Shown here: piece after piece, positions 28,297 through 37,830 of the stretch
Layout of the letters: the number at the start of each line of letters is the position of its first letter
Numbering within the stretch: position 1 is the stretch's first letter
Assembly: GCA_963756705.1 (NCBI GenBank)
Contig: CAVWOS010000009.1
Span: 18,120 to 82,119, forward strand
Length of the DNA stretch: 64,000 nucleotides
Source: an uncultured Actinomycetota bacterium
GTDB taxonomy: Bacteria; Actinomycetota; Actinomycetes; Streptomycetales; Streptomycetaceae
Direction of reading: 5' to 3'
Made by a program: the position numbers and the translations under genes
The notes under the pieces: generated by a model
Database searches by the model: none
What the model saw: the letters and a program-made list of their open reading frames with translations, nothing else
Told to the model about the DNA's origin: nothing

Positions 28297-29126
28297 ATGC
28301 CAGAGACCACCCTGCCTGCCGCCGAGGCTGCCGCGCTTGCTGAGCACGAGGCTGTCATCGACCGCGGCATCAAGACGTACTTCGAGGTCGGCGCCGCGCT
28401 GGCGGACATCCGTGACCGGCGCCTGTACCGGGCCAGCTACGCGACGTTCGAGCAGTACGCCGAACGGCGCTGGCAGATGAGCCGGGGCCGCGCCTACCAG
28501 ATGATCGAAGCGGCTGACGCGGTGTCTACAATTGTAGACACCGGAGCGCCTACACCGGCGAACGAGGGCCAGGCCCGGGAACTCTCGCGCGTCCCGGAGC
28601 CGGAACGCGCCGAGGTGTGGGCCGAGACGGTCGAGCGCACCGAGGGTCGGCCCACCGCGGCCGCCGTCCGTGACACCTACCAGCTGCGGCAGCAGCCGGA
28701 CGCCGACCCGCTCATGGATGCCGACCCGCCCTTGCGGATGTCGGCCCACTGGCGGATGTCGACCTGCCCGCGGACTCTGGCTGGGCGCCCCGGCCGGAGC
28801 CCGTGTCTGTGCCTGTGTCAGTGCCTGAGTCGAAGGTCAGGCGGCGCCCGCTGCCCGAGGTGTTCACCGACGCCGTCCGCGACCTCACGCGTGCCGCCGA
28901 GCGCCTGGAGCGCCTCACCGGCGATGACCGGTTCGCCAAGAACCGGGACGTCACGCAGGTTCCCGAGCTCATCGGCGCCCTGGAGCGCACCACGCACTTC
29001 GTCGAGGCCCTCGATCTCCCCGACGCCGAGGCGAGCGAGGAGGCCCGCCGCTGGTGGGCGACGGGCCTGCTCTCGATCAGCGACGCCCTCGCCGATGTCG
29101 CCCGCACCATCGAAGAGGAGCGGTAA
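28297..29126 (+). CDS. phage/plasmid HTH DNA-binding protein (frameshift near 28740-28800)
   Basis: EVGAALADIRDRRLYRASYATFEQYAERRWQMSRGRAYQMIEAA; related to the HTH segment of 24090..25301. Confidence 0.7.
28521..28542. repeat. perfect 22-bp intragenic palindrome
   Basis: GGTGTCTACAATTGTAGACACC, encodes VSTIVDT. Confidence 0.9.
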
Positions 29127-29932
29127 TGCCGACTCGTAAGGCGCTCGACATCGAGATCGTCACGGTCACCCCTGACCTCGCCACGGAGTGGCTCGCCCGC
29201 AACGGGCACAACCGGCCGCTGCGCCAGCGCGCTGTCACCGACTACGCCCGCGACATGGATTCCGGGCACTGGCTCCAGAACGGCGAGGCGATCAAATTTG
29301 CCTCCGACGGCACCCTCCTGGACGGACAGCACCGCCTCCACGCCGTCGTCATGTCCGGTGCCGATGTCGTGATGCTCGTGGTCCGCGGGCTGCCCATGTC
29401 CACGCAGGAAACGATGGACGCAGGTCGCAGGCGCACCACGGCCGACGCCTTCGGGCTGCGCGGTGAGGTCAACGCCACGGTCCTTGCGGCCGTCGCCAGA
29501 CGGGTCTGGATGTGGGAGCAGGGCGACTACAAGTTCGTCGCCAACTACACGCCCACCATGGCGGAATGCTCCGACCTCCTCAGGAGGCGACCGGAGATCT
29601 ACCGGTCGGTGGAGGTCGCTGTCCGCACTCACCAGGCGTTCCGGTACGTCCCGCGGTCCATCACCGGCACCTGCCATCACCTGTTCTCCCGCATCTCCGC
29701 TACGGACGCGCAGTGGTTTTTCGCCCGGCTTGCCGACGGCGCCGATCTCCCTGCCGGCCACCCCGTCCTGACCCTGCGGAACCGGGCCACGACCGAGCGG
29801 ACCGAACACCGCCACGTACCGGACCACCGGTTCACCGCCTACCTCATCCGGGCCTGGAACGCCGTCCGCGAGGACCGCACCCTCCACAAGATCATCCAGG
29901 CCCCCGACGCACCCATGCCCATGCCCAGGTGA
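29126..29932 (+). CDS. DGQHR/ParB-N-like domain protein
   Basis: NRPLRQRAV..YARDM..W..NGEAIKF..LLDGQHRLHAVV; TAATG coupling to the upstream gene. Confidence 0.8.
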   Translation: MPTRKALDIEIVTVTPDLATEWLARNGHNRPLRQRAVTDYARDMDSGHWLQNGEAIKFASDGTLLDGQHRLHAVVMSGADVVMLVVRGLPMSTQETMDAGRRRTTADAFGLRGEVNATVLAAVARRVWMWEQGDYKFVANYTPTMAECSDLLRRRPEIYRSVEVAVRTHQAFRYVPRSITGTCHHLFSRISATDAQWFFARLADGADLPAGHPVLTLRNRATTERTEHRHVPDHRFTAYLIRAWNAVREDRTLHKIIQAPDAPMPMPR

Positions 29933-31421: not shown

Positions 31422-32354
31422 ATGAGGGTTCTTATTGCTGGAGCCACCGGTGCTATCGGCTCCCGGATCTCCGCCCAGCTTCTCAGCGCGGGCCATGACG
31501 TCATCGGTCTTACCCGCACCAATCGTGGCGCGTTCGCACTCGCCCGCGCGGGCGTTAAGCCGATCGTCGTGGATGCGCTGCACCGGCCGAGTCTGCTGCG
31601 CGCGCTGGAGTCGGTGTCGGCGGATGTGGTCGTCCACCAGATGACCTCGCTCACCAGGGCGCCGGCCCGCCACAGCGACATGGCTCAGACAAACCGGCTT
31701 CGGACTCGTGGCACCGAGAATCTCCTTGCGGCAGCCCGGCTGATCGGCGCGGGCCGATTCGTCACCCAATCAATCGTCATGGGATACGGATACACCGATC
31801 ACGGGGCCACGGAGCTCACAGAGACCGACCCGTACGGCGCAGAGCCACACGGCAGGTGCGCCCCGCACGTGGCCGCGATGCTCACCAACGAGCAACTGGT
31901 CAAGTCGGCCACGGACATGGACGGAATCGCTCTGCGCTACGGCATGTTCTACGGCGCGGACATGCCGAAGATAATCGACTTGCTCAAGAAACGGCGCCTG
32001 CCGATCCCGGCACAAGAAAGGGGCAATCTGCTGCCCTGGATTCATATCGATGATGCTGCAGCAGCCACTGTACTGACAATTTCCCGGGGGAGAGCCGGTG
32101 AAGCCTACAACATCACTGACGAACTCCCGTGTTCCTGGGGGCAGTTCTTCAGCGAAATGGCCGAGAAATTCGGAACTCCGGCCCCCAGGACTCTTCCTGC
32201 TTGGGTGATCCGTATGGCTGCGCCCTATATCGGGGCCCTCGTCCTCGACACCAGCATGCGAGTCTCGACCGCCAAAGCCAGACACGACTTGGGTTGGCGG
32301 CCCGTCTATCCCGAGTACCGGGATGGATTCGCGGCATACGCCGCGGCCGCGTAG
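31422..32354 (+). CDS. NAD-dependent epimerase/dehydratase family protein
   Basis: MRVLIAGATGAIG, LRYGMFYG, PWIHIDDAAAA. Confidence 0.9.
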   Translation: MRVLIAGATGAIGSRISAQLLSAGHDVIGLTRTNRGAFALARAGVKPIVVDALHRPSLLRALESVSADVVVHQMTSLTRAPARHSDMAQTNRLRTRGTENLLAAARLIGAGRFVTQSIVMGYGYTDHGATELTETDPYGAEPHGRCAPHVAAMLTNEQLVKSATDMDGIALRYGMFYGADMPKIIDLLKKRRLPIPAQERGNLLPWIHIDDAAAATVLTISRGRAGEAYNITDELPCSWGQFFSEMAEKFGTPAPRTLPAWVIRMAAPYIGALVLDTSMRVSTAKARHDLGWRPVYPEYRDGFAAYAAAA

Positions 32355-32377
32355 TGCATCGCGAGCGAACAAGGAGC

Positions 32378-32441
32378 GTGATAGCCGGCGCATCCCCCGA
32401 CGCCGCGTACCGCGGACTGACCCGCTGGCAGGCGGTCCCGC
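32378..32441 (+). pseudogene. orphaned original 5' end of the APC permease gene
   Basis: AAGGAG SD plus GTG at 32378 gives MIAGASPDAAYRGLTRWQAVP, matching the permease TM1 lead-in at 34738. Confidence 0.7.
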
Positions 32442-32522
32442 CGGCCGGCGGGCGGGCCTCGCCGCACGCTCGGCCTGGCCGTCTAAGCCCAGAACAACAA
32501 CGTCAGCCCGGAGAAGAACCTG

Positions 32523-33524
32523 ATGACCGCCTATCGACTCGCCATCACCGTCCCTGGCATCCCACCGGCGACCCGCACCATCACCGCGGGTCCCGGCGAC
32601 CTCGCGCAAGCCGTGCACGGCCACGTCCGCGGGCTTCTCGGCAGTGCCCGCGTCGACATCCGTCTCGACCCCGACGCGCTCGCCGGGGAGATCACCAACC
32701 ACGGCGTGGCCGCGGGGACGTTCGCGCTGGCCCCCGAGGTGTCTGCCCCGGCGCGGCGCGGCCGAGTGCCGATGCACGGTTACAGTGCCGCGGCCATCGA
32801 CGATGTCGCCCGGCATGCGATCGCTCTCGACCGCTGGCGCAGTGGCGATGTCGAGGAGCGTACGGCGGTGGCGAGGTTCGCCATCGTCGAGCATCTGTGC
32901 ACGGCGGAGGAGCCGGTGACGCGCCGCGAGTTGATCGGGGTCGGGCTGCGCGCCGCGGACCGGTATGTCGTGCGCGAGATGCACCACCACGGCTGGGACA
33001 TCGACAACGTCGCCGCGGGGGGCGGTGCCATGGCCGGCTATCAGCGCTACTGGCAGGCCGGCCCCGGTGCTTCTCCGGAGCGCGGCGTCGTCGAACGCGC
33101 GGCGCTCGCGCAGATCTGGCCGCAGCTCACCCCGCGGCAGCGGCAGGCGCTGGAAGCGCTGCGGGACGCCGGTGACTACGCGCAGGCCGCTGCGTCCTTG
33201 GGGGTCACCGACGGCACGTTCCGGGTGCTGATCAGCAGCGCCCGGCGCCGGTTCCTGCTGTGGTGGCATGAGGGGGAGACGCCGTCGAAGACGTGGCGGA
33301 CGGACCGGCACCTGTACTCCCGTGACGGGATGTGCCGCGGGAAGCGGCAGTTGACCGTGTCCGAGGTGGAGCGGCTGCGGGACCGCTACCAGGACGAGGA
33401 AGGGCCGACGCTCACCGTGCTCGCCGCCGAGGTGGGGGTTCACAAGTCGACACTGTCGGCGCTGCTTCGGGGTCGTACGCGGCCGGCCCCTGATCCGGTC
33501 GATGAGGCGGCTGATGCGGCATGA
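32523..33524 (+). CDS. sigma-70 region-4-like protein with a second C-terminal HTH
   Basis: SPERGVVERAALAQIWPQLTPRQRQAL..YAQAAASLGVTDGTFRVLISSARRRF; TLTVLAAEVGVHKSTLSALLRG. Confidence 0.7.
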   Translation: MTAYRLAITVPGIPPATRTITAGPGDLAQAVHGHVRGLLGSARVDIRLDPDALAGEITNHGVAAGTFALAPEVSAPARRGRVPMHGYSAAAIDDVARHAIALDRWRSGDVEERTAVARFAIVEHLCTAEEPVTRRELIGVGLRAADRYVVREMHHHGWDIDNVAAGGGAMAGYQRYWQAGPGASPERGVVERAALAQIWPQLTPRQRQALEALRDAGDYAQAAASLGVTDGTFRVLISSARRRFLLWWHEGETPSKTWRTDRHLYSRDGMCRGKRQLTVSEVERLRDRYQDEEGPTLTVLAAEVGVHKSTLSALLRGRTRPAPDPVDEAADAA

Positions 33525-34718
33525 CAACCGCGGAGCCCGCCAACCCCGTAGACGACACCACGTTCACCCGGCCCCTGATCAAGGCCCTTCAGGGGCAGAT
33601 CGACGTGCTGGCCGCGACGATTCCCGGGCCGGACGCGCACCGCGTGGCGAGCGCCTGGGTGTACACCAGCATGCTGGCCGCGTGGTGCGAGGACCACGGC
33701 CTGACCCCGACGCGGCTGCGCGCCGACGCCGAGCCGGCGCGCAACGAGCACCAAGCCGCAGGCGGCAGCATGCTGAGCTGGCTGGGTCTCGCGTTCGCCG
33801 ACCTGACCGCGCACCCGGCAACCGCGTGCCTGCTCGACCCCCGCTACAACCCGGCCACCGCGGGCGCTCCGTCGGAGGACGCCGCCCGCGGCCTGATCGA
33901 GCTGGTGGTCCACCGACGCGCCCGACCTGGTCTACCCGACGGGGAGGGGCCCGGCGTCGATCACCGGGTGGCTGGCCGGCGACATGCTCCAGCTTGTCAC
34001 CAGCGAGCGGCGCCTGGCCAACGCCCTGTGCCAGACGCCGTGGTGGGTCGCGGACTTCCTGTGCGAGCGGACCCTGCTCCCCGCGATGTCCGAATGGCCC
34101 GGCGAGCGGCTGCGCGTCATCGACCCCGCCTGCGGGACCGGCCACATCCTCATCTGGATGCTCATCGGCCTGTACCGGTGGTACCGGTCCGACGGCCCCG
34201 GACACCCTGCCTGCACCCCGCAGCACGCGATCCGCCGCGCCCTGTCCGGCCTGCACGGCGTGGAACTCGACCCGCTCACCGCCGCAGTCGCCCGCCTCCG
34301 CGTCCTGGTGACCGCAGGCGCGCTGCTCGCCGGCGACGAAGGGCTGCCCGGCCCGCTGCGCCTCGCCTCGATCCCGCACGAGTGGCGGCCCCGGATCGCG
34401 GTCGGCAACAGCCTCCTGGCCGGCCTCGACGATCCGTGCCCGCCCGGCACGATCCTGGACGACACCGCCGACTACCCGCACATCCTCAAACGCGGCACCT
34501 ACCACGCCGTCATCGCCAACCCCCCGTACATCACCGTCAAAGACCCGGTGGTCAACGCGGCAATCCGGACCGCCTACAGCAACGTGTGCTCCGGCAAGTA
34601 CAGCCTCAGCGTGCCGTTCACCGTGCTGCTCTTCGACCTCGCGATCCGCGGCCGCCACACCGCCGCCGTACCGGAAGCCCCCGAGCAGCTCGGCCTCTTC
34701 CCGGAAACGGCCGCCTGA
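33521..34718 (+). CDS. short (~400 aa) PglX/BREX-2-like N6-adenine DNA methyltransferase (frameshift near 33900)
   Basis: ALCQTPWWVADFLCERTLLPA, IDPACGTGH motif I, GVELDP, ANPPYITVKD..CSGKYSLSVPF. Confidence 0.75.
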
Positions 34719-35992
34719 TGCCCCCGGCCCCGCGCACCGCGGACTGACCCGCTGGCAGGCGGTCCCGCTGGCCATCGGGTCGATCGCCGGCTCCGGCATC
34801 CTCTTCCTGCCGTCGGCGGTGTACTCGCGGGCGGGCCACAACAGCCTGCTGGTGTGGGCGGCCTCGACGCTGCTGTGCCTGCCGATGCTGCTGATGTTCG
34901 ACGACATGGTCCGCAGCAACCCCGGCGGCCGCGGCATCGAGGCGTTCATCCGGCTGGGGCTGGGCGAGATGTTCGGCCGCTGCGTGCCGGTGATGTTCAT
35001 CGCGCTGGTCATCGTCGGCCTGCCGTCCGGCGCGTTCGTCGCCGGACGCTACGTCGCCCAGGCGTTCGACGTGGGCCGCACCGTGACGATCGTCATCGCG
35101 GCGGCCGTGCTGGCCGCCGCGGTGCTGGTCAACCTGATCGGCGCGCGGGCCAGCACCCGGGTGCAGACCGCGGCCACCTGGGGCCTGGTGCTGGTGGCCA
35201 CCGCGCTGCTGGTCTCCGCCATCCCCTCGGTGCACCACGGCCTGCACACCGTCTCACCCACCAGCAGCCACCTGGACGTGGTGCTGCCCGGGGTACTGCT
35301 GGCCTTCTGGGCGTTCGCCGGATTCGAGAACCTGACCTTCCTCGCCCGGGAGTTCCGCGACCCCGAACGCGACTTCCTGCCGGTCAGCGCCCTCGCGCTG
35401 GCCGTCTACGGCGTGTTCACCATCCTGCTCACCGTGGCCATCGCCGTCACCGTGCCCCGCGCCGACGTCGACCAGGTGGTCGGGCTGCTCCAGCTCGCCA
35501 AGGCCGTCGGCTACGGAAAGATCGTCATCTGGGCCGTCACGTTCATCGCCTGCTGCGCCATGCTGCTCAACGCGGTCGCGTGGGTCTGGGGCGTCTCCCA
35601 ACTGGTGCGCGACGCGGCGGACAACGGCATGCTGCCGGCCGCGTTCGCCTCCTCACAGGGGGAGTCCGGCGCACGCCGGAGCCTGGCCCTGCTGGTCGGC
35701 CTGTTCTGCGTGACCTCGGTGGTCCTGGGCTTCCGGCCCTCCACCGTCGTCGACACCACCGCCACCGCCAGCGCGATCTTCATGCTGCTCTACATCCTGA
35801 GCATCATCTCCTACCTGCGGGTGCGCGGCCTGACCGTGCGCTCCGGACTCAACCTGATCCTGCTGGTCGTCATCGTGATCAGCCTCGTCCAGTCCCGCTG
35901 GCAGGCGCTCTACGGGGTGATCGTGCTCCTGGCCGCGCTGGCCGTCCAACTCCTCCAGCGGCGCCGGGCCCGCGGCGCGCCCGCACCGGTGA
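34718..35992 (+). CDS. APC-family amino acid permease (start region reconstructed)
   Basis: GSIAGSGILFLP TM1 motif, FWAFAGFENLTFLAREFRDPER TM6 motif, about 12 TM segments. Confidence 0.85.
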
Positions 35993-36497
35993 CCGGGGCC
36001 TTGGACGAGTTGGACGCGCTGTTCGGCGGCGACGGCTGGACGCACGCGCGGCGGATCGAGGTCCGCGGCGGCTACGCCTCGGACCGTCAGGACCCGCGCT
36101 GGGCCTACTGGCAGGCGACCCGACAGGTCGAGGCGGACCCGGACCGTCCCTGGTACACGCTGGTGCGGCGGTTGCGGGGCGAGGGCAGGGTCATCGAGCG
36201 CGTACGGGTCGTGGACACCCCGCCGACCCTCGGCCAGCTCTACCTGCGGGCAGTGGCCAGGGCCGGGAACACCCCGGCGGGCGAGACGATCCGCGAACTC
36301 GGCCGGGCCCGAGCCCGTTGCTCGGGCTGGACCAGGACGTTTGGCTGTTCGACGGGCCCCGGCCGACCGTCGCGACGCTGCGCTTCAGCGCCCGCGACGA
36401 CCTGCTCGGCATCACGGTCTCCCGCACCCCGGCCGACATCGCGGCCGCCCGCCACCGCTGGCGGACCGCCTGGGACGCCACCGCGGAGCAGACATGA
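35989..36497 (+). CDS. DUF6879-like protein (frameshift near 36310)
   Basis: ARRIEVRGGY..W..G..IERVRVVDTPPT..YL..GETIR..DVWLFD pattern. Confidence 0.55.
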
Positions 36498-37830
36498 CCT
36501 CAACGGACAGTCCGAACGCCGGCAGACCCGCTGACGGATCGTCCCCTGAGCGCCGACCCCGCTGGGCCGCCGACCCCGACCCGACCCCTCAACCGGCCGG
36601 CCGGGCCCGCGGGCGGCACAAGCGCCCCCAAGAGGCCCGGCCTGTGCCGCTGCCCCAGCGGGTCGGCCAGTCGCTGGCGCTGCCCGTCGCCGCCCTGCCC
36701 GCAGCCGGGTTCCTGCTGCGCATGGGGCAGCCCGACCTGCTGGGACGCTGGCACCCGGTGCACACCCTGGCCGCCGTGTGCACGGCCGCGGGCAGCAGCG
36801 TGCTCGACAACCTCCCGCTGCTTTTTGCCCTCGGGCTGGGGCTCGGCCTGCCCCGGGGCAAGGACCGTACCGGCCCGGTCCTGGCCAGCGTCGTCTCCTA
36901 CCTCGTACTGACCCGAACCCTGCTGACCTTGTGTCCGCTCCCCGCGGGCCAGCCCGACAACATCCCTGCCCGATGGCCCTACGGCGCCCTGGGCGGTCTC
37001 CTCGCCGGACTCCTCGCGGTGTCCGTCTGGGGGCTGGTCGAGCGCCGGCGCATCCCGGCGTTCGCCGGCTACGGATTGGTCGCGGCCACAGCGGCGGGCA
37101 GCGGCTGGGCCCTCGCCCTGCCCTACCCGGCCGTCAACCGGGCCCTGACCGCGTTCGCTTCCACCAGCGCCCACCACCCGGTCATCGGTGGCGCGATGTT
37201 CGGCTTCCTGAATCGTGCCTTGCTACCGATTGGCCTTCATCAATTGCCGAATTCCGTCGTGTGGTGGCTTACCGGCCGTTGCCGGGCGGGCACGACAGGC
37301 GACATCCCGTGCTTTCTCGCTCACGACCCCCACGCGGGCACCTATCTTTCGGGATTTTTCCCGATCGCGATTTTCGCGCTGCCCGCCGCCGCACTGGCGA
37401 TGTGGCACTGCGCGCCGCCTGACCAGCGCCGCGCCGCGGCCCAGATTCTACTGCCCGCCGCTGCGATGTCGTTCGCGTTCGGGGTCACCGAGCCCTTGGA
37501 ATTGGCCTTCGCCTTCGTCGCGATTCGCCTCTACCTCGTCCACGCCGTGCTGACCGGCTCCTGCCTGGCATTTGTCAATTGGTTGGGCATCCACGACGGG
37601 TTCGTTTTCTCTGCCGGCGCCGCGGACTTCCTCTTCAACTGGCACTTGGCCACCCGTCCCTTGTGGCTGCTGCCCATCGGCGCGGCGTACGGCGTCATCT
37701 ATTACGTCCTGTTCCGGCTTCGCGATCGTCCACTTCGACCTGCCCACCCCGGGCCGGCTCGGACGAGGCGCCCCGACCATCCCGGACCCAGACCCCAGTC
37801 CATCGACGAGGGGACCCCGCCAGATGATCC
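36494..37830 (+). CDS. PTS EIIC component, GlcNAc/glucose family (NagE-like; frameshift near 37727; 3' end uncertain)
   Basis: QRVGQSLALPVAALPAAGFLLRMGQPD, NRALLPIGLHQ, GVTEPLE, FSAGAADF, F-D-LPTPGR tail. Confidence 0.85.

What the first reader, a model, noticed from the sequence alone, without database searches (positions are those of the whole stretch)
33521..34718. Mini-PglX: BREX-2-like methyltransferase core without other pgl genes
Seen: an ~400-aa protein with PglX-like segments (AWV..CEDHGL; ALxQTPxxVxxFLxxRTLxPA; NPPYITVKD..CSGKYSLSVPF) that ends soon after motif IV. Established: PglX of the Streptomyces Pgl/BREX-2 system is roughly three times longer, carries its target-recognition region C-terminally, and works with PglW/Y/Z, none of which is seen here. 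Inference: an anti-BREX mimic or dominant-negative subunit, or a low-specificity MTase that shields the element, expressed behind a dedicated sigma-like gene.
Basis: partly seen in the sequence, partly recalled or inferred. Interest (0 to 1): 0.7.

Follow-up and report, generated by a model that had tools for sequence, protein, structure and literature searches.

The report
Truncated phage copy of BREX PglX
This is a short gene descended from the front third of a bacterial anti-phage methylase (BREX-2 PglX) that phages and plasmids of Streptomyces-like bacteria keep at a fixed short length, probably as a non-enzymatic mimic. The copy in this window has a one-base frameshift and sits in a small phage-derived island.

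Summary
The PglX-like segments are real and specific: the best HMM is NCBIfam BREX-2 PglX at 1e-63, against 30 bits for Pfam Eco57I. In the window they lie in two reading frames. One extra base near 33900 splits the gene, and four close relatives lack that base and encode an intact 398-aa protein.

The gene belongs to a conserved, monophyletic family of 340-400 aa (more than 200 homologues, dN/dS 0.2-0.4). It occurs in actinomycete prophages and viral contigs, next to orphan methylases, RecT, DnaB and sometimes a phage DnaN. A sigma-like gene usually overlaps its start by 4 nt.

The family keeps PglX's N-terminal helical bundle and the SAM-binding half of the methylase fold. It lacks motifs VI-VIII and the target-recognition domain, and 67 of 120 members lack NPPY as well.

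It has gained a disordered C-terminal tail ending QL(D/S/G)LF, which matches the beta-clamp-binding consensus. None of 75 full-length PglX proteins has this motif.

My best reading is a non-catalytic PglX mimic tethered to the replication clamp that interferes with BREX-2/Pgl. That mechanism is inferred, not shown. The window copy lies in a 2.3-kb, two-gene remnant between repeats of a permease 5' end, and no other pgl gene is present.

The parts
32378..32452 (+). Left repeat R1. A decayed duplicate of the 5' end of the amino-acid permease gene (GTG, then ..SPDAAYRGLTRWQAVP). The 59-nt repeat 32394-32452 has a 33-nt exact core at 32409-32441.
   Evidence: the repeat finder pairs 32394-32452 with 34721-34779 at 90% identity, spacing 2327 nt. 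The core occurs only at these two places in the window. Aligned with L096 repeats R1, R2 and R3.
32453..32522 (+). 70-nt leader between R1 and the sigma-like gene. It carries GGAGAAG shortly before the ATG.
   Evidence: Sequence read directly. It is 78% identical to the leader of a second unit in L096, 12233-12490.
32523..33524 (+). Sigma-like/HTH partner gene (333 aa). Its stop overlaps the mini-PglX start by 4 nt (ATGA).
   Evidence: Pfam Sigma70_r4_2 1.8e-5 and HTH_3 3.4e-5. AF2 mean pLDDT 82.5. Foldseek top PDB hits are sigma factors. A homologue lies directly upstream of mini-PglX in L001, L002, L085, L086, L088, L096 and L098.
33521..33899 (+). Mini-PglX, codons 1-126 (frame 2): first part of the PglX-like N-terminal helical bundle.
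33899..33902 (+). Site of the single extra base (frameshift). The window reads ATCGAGCTGG, L096 reads ATCGAGTGG and L097 reads ATCGGCTGG.
   Evidence: The base is absent in L096, L097, X1 and X4.
33901..34718 (+). Mini-PglX, remaining codons (frame 0): end of the helical bundle, then motif I (IDPACGTGH, 34119-34145), motif II (GVELDP), VGNSLL, motif IV (NPPY, 34518-34529), the motif V helix, and the stop at 34716-34718.
34686..34700 (+). QLGLF, the C-terminal clamp-binding-like motif, five residues before the stop.
   Evidence: The consensus QL(S/D)LF is taken from PMC9690074.
34721..34779 (+). Right repeat, a hybrid of R2 and R3, which runs into the body of the permease gene. The permease reading frame continues from 34738 but has no start codon before 34819.

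Best explanation
What it is (shown). The gene belongs to a mobile-element family that descends from the N-terminal third of the BREX-2 (Pgl) methyltransferase PglX.

The family keeps PglX's N-terminal helical bundle and the SAM-binding half of the methylase fold (motifs I-III, plus IV-V in about half the members). It has lost strands 5-7, the target-recognition domain and the C-terminal domain. It has gained a disordered tail that ends in a beta-clamp-binding-type motif, QL(D/S/G)LF. It is usually translationally coupled to a sigma-like DNA-binding protein and lies in the early/replication region of actinomycete prophages.

How it most likely works (inferred). The protein cannot methylate DNA. 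It acts as a mimic of PglX: its conserved N-terminal and SAM-binding module occupies the partners that real PglX needs (PglZ and PglY/BrxC), or competes for them. The tail parks it on the sliding clamp of replicating phage DNA, the place where BREX-type systems act. In this way it would blunt BREX-2/Pgl.

This window's copy. The window holds a stranded two-gene fragment of such an element, set between duplicated permease 5' ends. One extra base breaks the gene, so it is either a very young pseudogene or a local consensus error.
For: Shown:
- Homology is specific to BREX-2 PglX positions 58-412. The alignment is colinear up to the motif V helix; full-length PglX then continues with motif VI, while the mini family ends in a Pro/Ala linker plus QLDLF.
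- An exhaustive profile search gives the mini clade 532-300 bits. After a gap, hits at 217 bits or less are mostly 1150-1320-aa PglX matched at their residues about 50-415.
- In an NJ tree all 13 mini sequences form one clade. Its sister is the 436-477-aa plasmid-type short forms.
- Length is fixed, and dN/dS is 0.20-0.39 between L096/L097 and L001/L002.
- In the AF2 model (pLDDT 81.9, pTM 0.85) I read the predicted strands as beta 1-4 only, and residues 379-400 are disordered.
- Motif I and the motif II glutamate are invariant. NPPY is absent in 67 of 120 members.
- The tail motif is present in 51 of 120 members (strict pattern) or 72 of 120 (loose pattern), against 0 of 75 full-length PglX and 0 of 46 partner proteins.
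- A phage dnaN lies 0.4-4.5 kb upstream in L087, L089 and L094.
- Neighbours include orphan C5 and N6 methylases, RecT/YqaJ, DnaB, and a gene carrying a precomputed Acb5 (anti-CBASS) hit.
- The family occurs in 11 IMG/VR viral contigs.

From the literature:
- The BrxX/PglX N-terminal domain is proposed to be the interface for BrxZ/BrxC (PMC11842806; PMC12839542).
- PglX and PglZ interact genetically in S. coelicolor (PMC4365076).
Against: - No experiment or complex prediction links the protein to any BREX-2 component.
- The decoy model by itself does not explain the tight coupling to a sigma-like protein.
- A homologue of that partner is also paired with an unrelated TRD-less N6-methylase in L099. 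This points to a partner-plus-methylase-module logic rather than to BREX.
- NPPY is strictly kept in the 395-aa subgroup, which is odd for a pure decoy.
- The island copy persists at one chromosomal site in at least four samples, where an anti-defence gene has no obvious use. Between L096 and L097 the gene shows 4 synonymous and 9 non-synonymous changes.
- Whether hosts of these prophages carry BREX-2 was not tested.
Confidence: 0.4

Rival explanations
1. It is an adaptor for the sigma-like partner. The mini-PglX binds that partner and, through its tail, the sliding clamp, so that phage transcription is coupled to DNA replication. From my own knowledge, T4 does this with gp33/gp55 and the gp45 clamp; phage Mu's MuC has recently been reported to use the clamp as well. 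On this view the PglX-derived module is simply an exapted protein-binding or SAM-sensing domain.
For: - The 4-nt overlap with a sigma-like gene is conserved in the window, L001, L002, L096 and L098.
- The partner resembles sigma factors.
- The clamp-binding-like tail is on the mini protein and never on the partner, 0 of 46.
- The gene sits among dnaN and dnaB.
- The Mu precedent is bioRxiv 10.1101/2025.01.04.631326 (listed).
Against: - No gene fusion of the two proteins was found.
- In L099 the mini gene has a different upstream gene, and in L089 and L094 the partner-like gene lies downstream.
- The sigma assignment is weak: Pfam is just below its cut-off and Foldseek E-values are 2.5e-3 or worse.
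- It does not explain why specifically a BREX-2 PglX fragment was kept.
Confidence: 0.2
2. It is a working or partner-completed DNA adenine methylase that rides the clamp and marks newly made element DNA with low specificity, shielding it from restriction or BREX. The HTH partner would supply DNA binding.
For: - The sister clade (436-477 aa, for example P0188) has a complete catalytic domain without a TRD, and some members carry the same QLDLF tail.
- The 395-aa subgroup keeps NPPY strictly.
- A partner homologue is paired with another TRD-less methylase in L099.
- Orphan methylases are neighbours.
Against: - The fold ends after motif V, so strands 5-7 are missing.
- 67 of 120 members have no NPPY.
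- No PglX residue 421-to-end homologue lies within 10 kb in 15 loci or in the window.
- The partner's predicted fold is a beta domain plus sigma-like helices, not a methylase half.
Confidence: 0.12
3. It is a prophage-encoded function that benefits the host, either exclusion of other phages or regulation. This would explain why the island is kept in the chromosome.
For: - The same island sits at the same site in L096, L097, a third Logan contig and X1, with intact ORFs.
- The sigma-like gene has no nucleotide differences among the window, L096 and L097.
Against: - There is no PADLOC hit for the partner, and the PADLOC hits for the mini protein are only the partial PglX matches.
- There is no effector-like domain.
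- Between L096 and L097 the mini gene shows near-neutral change.
- The window copy is broken.
Confidence: 0.1
4. It is a clamp-targeting takeover factor. The tail blocks the host DnaN pocket, or recruits DnaN to phage DNA, and the PglX ancestry is irrelevant.
For: - The C-terminal consensus-type clamp-binding motif is conserved in an otherwise variable tail.
- Toxins such as SocB act this way (PMC9690074).
Against: The roughly 330-aa PglX-derived body, including the invariant SAM-binding motifs, is conserved far beyond what a tail carrier would need.
Confidence: 0.08

Closest known systems
PglX (BrxX) of BREX type 2 / the Streptomyces Pgl system (NCBIfam NF033451)
   Same: Colinear sequence homology over the N-terminal helical bundle and methylase motifs I-V at 30-36% identity. 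It shares signature stretches such as QTPxxVxxFxLDRTLxPA, IDPxCGxGH and NPPYITVKD...GKYSLSVPF.
   Different: - One third of the length.
- No motifs VI-VIII, no TRD and no C-terminal domain.
- No pglZ, pglY or pglW nearby.
- Carried by phages and plasmids.
- Has a C-terminal QLDLF tail that 0 of 75 full-length PglX proteins possess.
Short PglX-like 'DNA methylase' genes of Streptomyces linear plasmids (for example pSCL3 WP_009998771, 436 aa) and P0188-type proteins (477 aa)
   Same: They are the sister clade in the NJ tree. They are carried by mobile elements, lack a TRD, and some have the same QLDLF-type tail.
   Different: They keep the whole catalytic domain through motif VIII, so they may be active enzymes. 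The window's family is cut back further.
Known anti-BREX proteins: T7 Ocr (a DNA mimic that binds PglX), T3 SAM lyase, ICP1 OrbA
   Same: The proposed role is the same, a phage protein that disables BREX. The genomic setting is also similar, among early and anti-restriction genes.
   Different: There is no sequence or fold relation: no PHROG hit, and the BFVD and PDB matches are methylases only. The proposed mode is mimicry of the defence subunit itself, which has not been described for BREX in the papers I searched.
Clamp-dependent phage transcription: T4 gp33/gp55 with gp45 (my own knowledge) and Mu MuC (bioRxiv 10.1101/2025.01.04.631326)
   Same: A small phage protein with a C-terminal clamp-binding peptide is encoded next to a sigma-like factor within a replication module.
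   Different: No homology to these proteins. Binding to the clamp or to RNA polymerase is untested.
Eco57I / MmeI-type (type IIG/IIL) gamma-class N6-adenine methylase domains
   Same: The fold class is the same. Foldseek finds MmeI at 4.5e-5, then DrdV, BrxX and LlaBIII. Pfam Eco57I scores 8e-7.
   Different: Only positions 3-125 of the 171-position Pfam model are covered. There is no nuclease and no TRD, and the score is far lower than for BREX-2 PglX.

Membership tests
BREX-2 PglX (NF033451 equivalog) | Whole-protein HMM score at or above the curated cut-off of 400 bits | tested here: not met
   215.6 bits, and only model positions 58-412 of 1185 are matched.
BREX-2 PglX (NF033451 equivalog) | N-terminal helical bundle plus methylase motifs I-IV, colinear with PglX | tested here: met
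   The AF2 model has helices across residues 14-193 followed by three strands of 3 or more residues plus short strand fragments, which I read as beta 1-4.
BREX-2 PglX (NF033451 equivalog) | Complete gamma-class catalytic domain (motifs VI-VIII), target-recognition domain and C-terminal domain | tested here: not met
   The alignment ends after the motif V helix. No homologue of PglX residues 421 to the end is found in the window or in 15 loci.
BREX-2 PglX (NF033451 equivalog) | Encoded in a cluster with pglZ, pglY/brxC and pglW | tested here: not met
   tblastn with proteins of nine BREX-2 loci hits only the cassette in the window. Gene tables of L001, L002, L096, L098 and L099 show none of these genes.
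Mobile-element 'mini-PglX' family (unnamed; defined here) | 340-404 aa; ends after motif III (no-NPPY subgroup) or motif V (NPPY subgroup); falls in the monophyletic clade | tested here: met
   The repaired window protein is 399 aa. It is 83% identical to P0001 and close to the 398-aa protein of L097, whose DNA is 99.7% identical to the window.
Mobile-element 'mini-PglX' family (unnamed; defined here) | Uninterrupted reading frame | tested here: not met
   One extra base at 33899-33902. Intact in L096, L097, X1 and X4.
Mobile-element 'mini-PglX' family (unnamed; defined here) | Sigma-like/HTH gene immediately upstream, overlapping by 4 nt | tested here: met
   Partner 32523-33524 against mini-PglX starting at 33521. 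The same arrangement is seen in L001, L002, L096 and L098.
Bacterial beta-clamp-binding proteins | Pentapeptide QL(S/D)LF at or near the C-terminus, in a flexible segment | tested here: met
   The window has QLGLF at 34686-34700, so position 3 deviates from the consensus. The family consensus is QLDLF/QLSLF. The tail is disordered in the AF2 model. The consensus is from PMC9690074.
Bacterial beta-clamp-binding proteins | Physical binding to the hydrophobic pocket of DnaN | not testable with these tools
   No complex prediction or assay was available. The only support is a phage dnaN nearby in 3 viral loci.
Eco57I-type methylase domain (Pfam PF07669) | Match above the Pfam gathering score across the domain | tested here: inconclusive
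   29.7 bits against a cut-off of 25.3, but only model positions 3-125 of 171 are matched.
Sigma-70 family (partner gene) | Region 2 and region 4 recognised by curated models | tested here: inconclusive
   Sigma70_r4_2 scores 24.7 bits against a cut-off of 25.7. TIGR02937 scores 16 bits against 42.9. Foldseek's top hits are sigma factors but with E-values of 2.5e-3 or worse.

The most novel reading that the evidence does not exclude
Actinomycete phages and plasmids carry a clamp-tethered, catalytically dead copy of the BREX-2 methylase's N-terminal module. It rides the replication fork and blocks assembly or action of the PglX-PglZ-PglY complex on nascent phage DNA. That would be the first anti-BREX factor that works by mimicking a BREX subunit. 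It would also be a direct pointer that BREX-2 acts at the replisome and that the PglX N-terminal domain is the assembly interface.
Probability: 0.25. Interest if true: 0.85.

Novelty: new variant of a known kind. Interest (0 to 1): 0.6.

Why it matters
How BREX stops phages is still unresolved, and the role of the PglX/BrxX N-terminal domain is only guessed at in the literature (PMC11842806, PMC12839542).

A conserved mobile-element family that keeps exactly that domain, keeps the SAM pocket, discards catalysis and DNA recognition, and adds a clamp-binding tail works as a natural dissection of PglX. It shows which part is worth stealing and gives a ready reagent to probe BREX-2/Pgl assembly.

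If the family instead couples a sigma-like factor to the clamp, it would extend T4- and Mu-style replication-coupled transcription to actinophages.

The family has no PHROG, and the source names shown for members in the search output are only 'hypothetical protein', 'DNA methyltransferase' or 'Eco57I ... domain-containing protein'. I found no paper describing it.

For this window alone the significance is modest, because the copy is broken and stranded.

Tried and rejected
- **Truncated pseudogene of a 1200-aa PglX.** Rejected for the family: length is fixed, the clade is monophyletic and dN/dS is 0.2-0.4.
- **Generic Eco57I methylase.** Rejected: 30 bits against 215 bits for BREX-2 PglX.
- **Split methylase with the other half nearby.** No homologue of PglX residues 421 to the end in 15 loci or the window.
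- **Fusion proteins linking the partner and mini-PglX.** None found. The apparent 617-aa ORF in L085 is a wrong-frame upstream extension.
- **Autonomous 2.3-kb mobile element flanked by a target duplication.** Not supported. The repeats are diverged copies of the permease 5' end. L096 shows a longer island with a second unit and three repeat copies, and the window lacks L096 12225-14907, with the junction inside a 23-nt repeat. No integrase is present.
- **Isolated phage genomes (INPHARED).** No hit.
- **PHROGs.** No hit for mini-PglX.
- **Genome-contig scan.** It returned only full-length PglX loci, so it gave no context for the mini family.
- **Exact-protein look-ups of the 244-aa ORF and of the epimerase.** Not on record.
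- **Promoter and terminator scan of 32200-35000.** Nothing found.
- **Acb5 hit in L099.** This precomputed annotation could not be reproduced with the local Pfam copy.
- **ParB-like guess for the ORFs at 28.3-29.9 kb.** No Pfam support.
Full report
**The observation**

The window is about 71% G+C and Streptomyces-like.
- Frame 2 reads MTTAEP...AARGLIEL from 33521 to about 33899.
- Frame 0 carries WWSTDAPDL...QTPWWVADF...IDPACGTGH...NPPYITVKD...GKYSLSVPF...QLGLFPETAA, ending at the stop at 34716-34718.

The mechanically listed ORFs are a 408-aa read-through in the wrong frame and a 244-aa ORF at 33984-34718. tblastn with every homologue switches frame at 33897-33901.

**Is it PglX-like?**

Yes. 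Joined across the shift, the 399-aa protein scores as follows:

| Model | E-value | Bits | Region matched |
|---|---|---|---|
| NCBIfam NF033451, BREX-2 PglX | 9.9e-64 | 215.6 | model 58-412 of 1185 |
| PADLOC PglX PDLC02529 | 1.8e-63 | 212.8 | model 62-409 of 1189 |
| Next-best model (PADLOC type IIG) | 3.7e-36 | 122 | model 63-409 of 1183 |
| Pfam Eco57I | 8e-7 | 29.7 | model 3-125 of 171 |

- A direct alignment with nine full-length BREX-2 PglX proteins is colinear from the helical N-terminus to the motif V helix (...LFxLAIRG). Full PglX then continues with motif VI (GfvGkITsNsFMKReFG), while the short proteins end in a Pro/Ala linker and QLDLF.
The PglX assignment stands, but only for the N-terminal third.

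**A conserved short family, not ragged truncations**

- A word-indexed search found 207 homologues. The 120 listed are mostly 336-404 aa, at 83-44% identity. Named sources include Streptomyces, Wenjunlia, Glycomyces, Actinomadura and Sphaerisporangium.
- An exhaustive profile search of 1.84 billion representatives gave the short clade 532-300 bits. After a gap, hits at 217 bits or less are mostly 1150-1320-aa PglX matched at residues about 50-415.
- In an NJ tree all 13 short sequences form one clade. Its sister is a group of 436-477-aa plasmid-type proteins that keep the whole catalytic domain but no recognition domain.
- dN/dS between L096/L097 and L001/L002 copies is 0.20-0.39.
- There are two subgroups. 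About 395-aa proteins, including the window's, keep ANPPY and the motif V helix. About 340-370-aa proteins have no NPPY at all, and these are 67 of the 120.
- Motif I (DPxCGTGH) and the motif II glutamate are invariant in both subgroups.
- The AlphaFold model of P0001 (pLDDT 81.9, pTM 0.85) shows a helical bundle followed by strands I read as beta 1-4 of the methylase fold, and a disordered tail at residues 379-400.
- Its best PDB matches are MmeI, DrdV, BrxX, PglX and LlaBIII. Its best viral-structure matches are much longer methylases.

- In an otherwise variable Pro/Ala-rich tail, most members end with Q-[LFMV]-[DSGA]-L-F two to eight residues before the stop. This holds for 51 of 120 by a strict pattern and 72 of 120 as Qxx[LM]F.
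- By the same patterns it is found in none of 75 full-length PglX (anywhere in the protein) and in none of 46 partner proteins. It also occurs in the sister clade (P0188 ends ..AEQLDLFADSLDPAA).
- QL(S/D)LF at the C-terminus is the bacterial beta-clamp-binding consensus (PMC9690074). The window copy has QLGLF at 34686-34700.
- In three IMG/VR loci a phage-encoded DnaN lies 0.4-4.5 kb upstream of the short gene, with DnaB nearby in L089 and L094: L089 7943-9082, with all three clamp domains at 1e-40 to 1e-25, plus L094 and L087.

**Genomic setting of the family**

- The gene sits in long same-strand arrays typical of prophage early regions.
  - L002 has YqaJ, RecT, a C5 methylase, an IstB-like loader and DnaB.
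  - L001 has C5 and N6 methylases immediately upstream.
  - L098 has a C5 methylase and DnaB.
  - L099 has WhiB, HNH, methylases and a gene with a precomputed Acb5 (anti-CBASS) hit. I could not reproduce that Acb5 hit with the local Pfam copy.
- Eleven IMG/VR viral contigs carry the family. No isolated phage in INPHARED does, and no PHROG matches it.
- A 250-400-aa gene overlapping its start by 4 nt is homologous to the window's 32523-33524 gene in L001, L002, L096 and L098. It lies just upstream in L085, L086 and L088.
- That partner has Sigma70_r4_2 and HTH_3 matches just around the Pfam cut-offs. Its AlphaFold model's best PDB matches are almost all sigma factors, at weak E-values.
- In L099 a partner homologue is paired with a different recognition-domain-less N6 methylase.

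**What the window holds**

- L096 is a 192-kb metagenome contig that is 97% identical to the window. Its gene order is: epimerase, sigma-like gene, intact 398-aa mini-PglX, four further genes (two of them sigma-like paralogues), intact permease, PTS EIIC, GT2, GntR.
- L097 is 99.7% identical and also encodes the intact 398-aa protein.
- The window differs in two ways.
  - It has one extra base. The window reads ATCGAGCTGG, L096 reads ATCGAGTGG and L097 reads ATCGGCTGG. This looks like a merge of the two alleles, so a consensus artefact is as plausible as a fresh mutation. It is one of only three indels in 3.6 kb. Contigs of runs X1 and X4 also lack the base.
  - It lacks L096 12225-14907, with the junction inside a 23-nt repeat. 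This also removes the permease start codon.
- The 59-nt direct repeats that flank the two-gene cassette (32394-32452 and 34721-34779) are diverged copies of the permease 5' end. L096 has three such copies. No integrase is present.
- No pglW, pglY or pglZ homologue occurs in the 64 kb.

**Mechanism**

Shown: the protein is a PglX N-terminal bundle plus the SAM-binding half-domain and a clamp-binding-type tail. It is carried by mobile elements, is under selection, and lacks the parts needed for base flipping and sequence recognition.

Inferred: it acts as a non-catalytic PglX mimic at the replication fork that interferes with BREX-2/Pgl.
- Two recent papers propose that the BrxX/PglX N-terminal domain is the interface to BrxZ/BrxC.
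- Genetics in S. coelicolor indicate a PglX-PglZ interaction.
- I put this reading at about 0.4.

Rivals:
- An adaptor that couples the sigma-like partner to the clamp (0.2).
- A partner-completed, clamp-riding methylase (0.12).
- A host-beneficial prophage function (0.1).
- A clamp-targeting takeover factor (0.08).

**Verdict**

- The family is undescribed as far as the searched literature shows. I rate it a new variant of a known kind.
- Interest is 0.6 for the family. The window's own copy is a broken, stranded example.

Noticed in passing
window 34686-34700; family-wide in P0001-P0120: A conserved C-terminal QL(D/S/G)LF tail, matching the beta-clamp-binding consensus, on a PglX-derived protein. 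It is absent from all 75 full-length PglX proteins examined.
   Followed up: yes
L089 7943-9082; L094 5382-6527; L087 8413-9531: Phage-encoded DnaN (sliding clamp) genes lie just upstream of the mini-PglX gene in three IMG/VR contigs, with DnaB helicase nearby in L089 and L094.
   Followed up: partly
window 34738-36534: The permease gene has lost its start codon; the first in-frame start is at 34819. Its ORF runs on into a DUF6879 fragment. Window 35964-36476 has no counterpart in the close relative L096.
   Followed up: partly
L096 12225-14907: A second unit sits between permease-5'-like repeats R2 and R3. It has four genes, including two more sigma-like paralogues (316 aa and 212 aa). Its leader and first gene are 78% identical to the window's 32460-32728. 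The unit is missing from the window.
   Followed up: partly
L099 14067-16051: A homologue of the sigma-like partner (47% identical) overlaps the start of a different 414-aa N6-methylase that has no recognition domain. The partner family therefore pairs with more than one kind of methylase module.
   Followed up: partly
L003 7968-9278 (pSCL3); L004 8034-9341; P0188: Streptomyces linear plasmids carry 436-477-aa PglX-like genes with a complete catalytic domain but no recognition domain. They are the sister clade of the mini family. pSCL3 also has a 194-aa methylase fragment about 3.7 kb downstream.
   Followed up: partly
window 28297-29932: Two ORFs without Pfam hits. The second (29126-29932) is 37% identical over 255 aa to a 583-aa protein lying 2.4 kb upstream of mini-PglX in viral contig L086. 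This may be another mobile-element remnant.
   Followed up: partly
window 32141-33740 against L096: There are no nucleotide differences across 1.6 kb (3' end of the epimerase gene, R1, the sigma-like gene and the start of mini-PglX). The permease differs by about 3% and the PTS EIIC region by 15-20%. This mosaic pattern suggests recent recombination.
   Followed up: no
L099/L100 7582-9270: A 562-aa gene two genes upstream of mini-PglX carries a precomputed Pfam PF26761 (Acb5, anti-CBASS 5) hit. The local Pfam copy did not reproduce it.
   Followed up: partly
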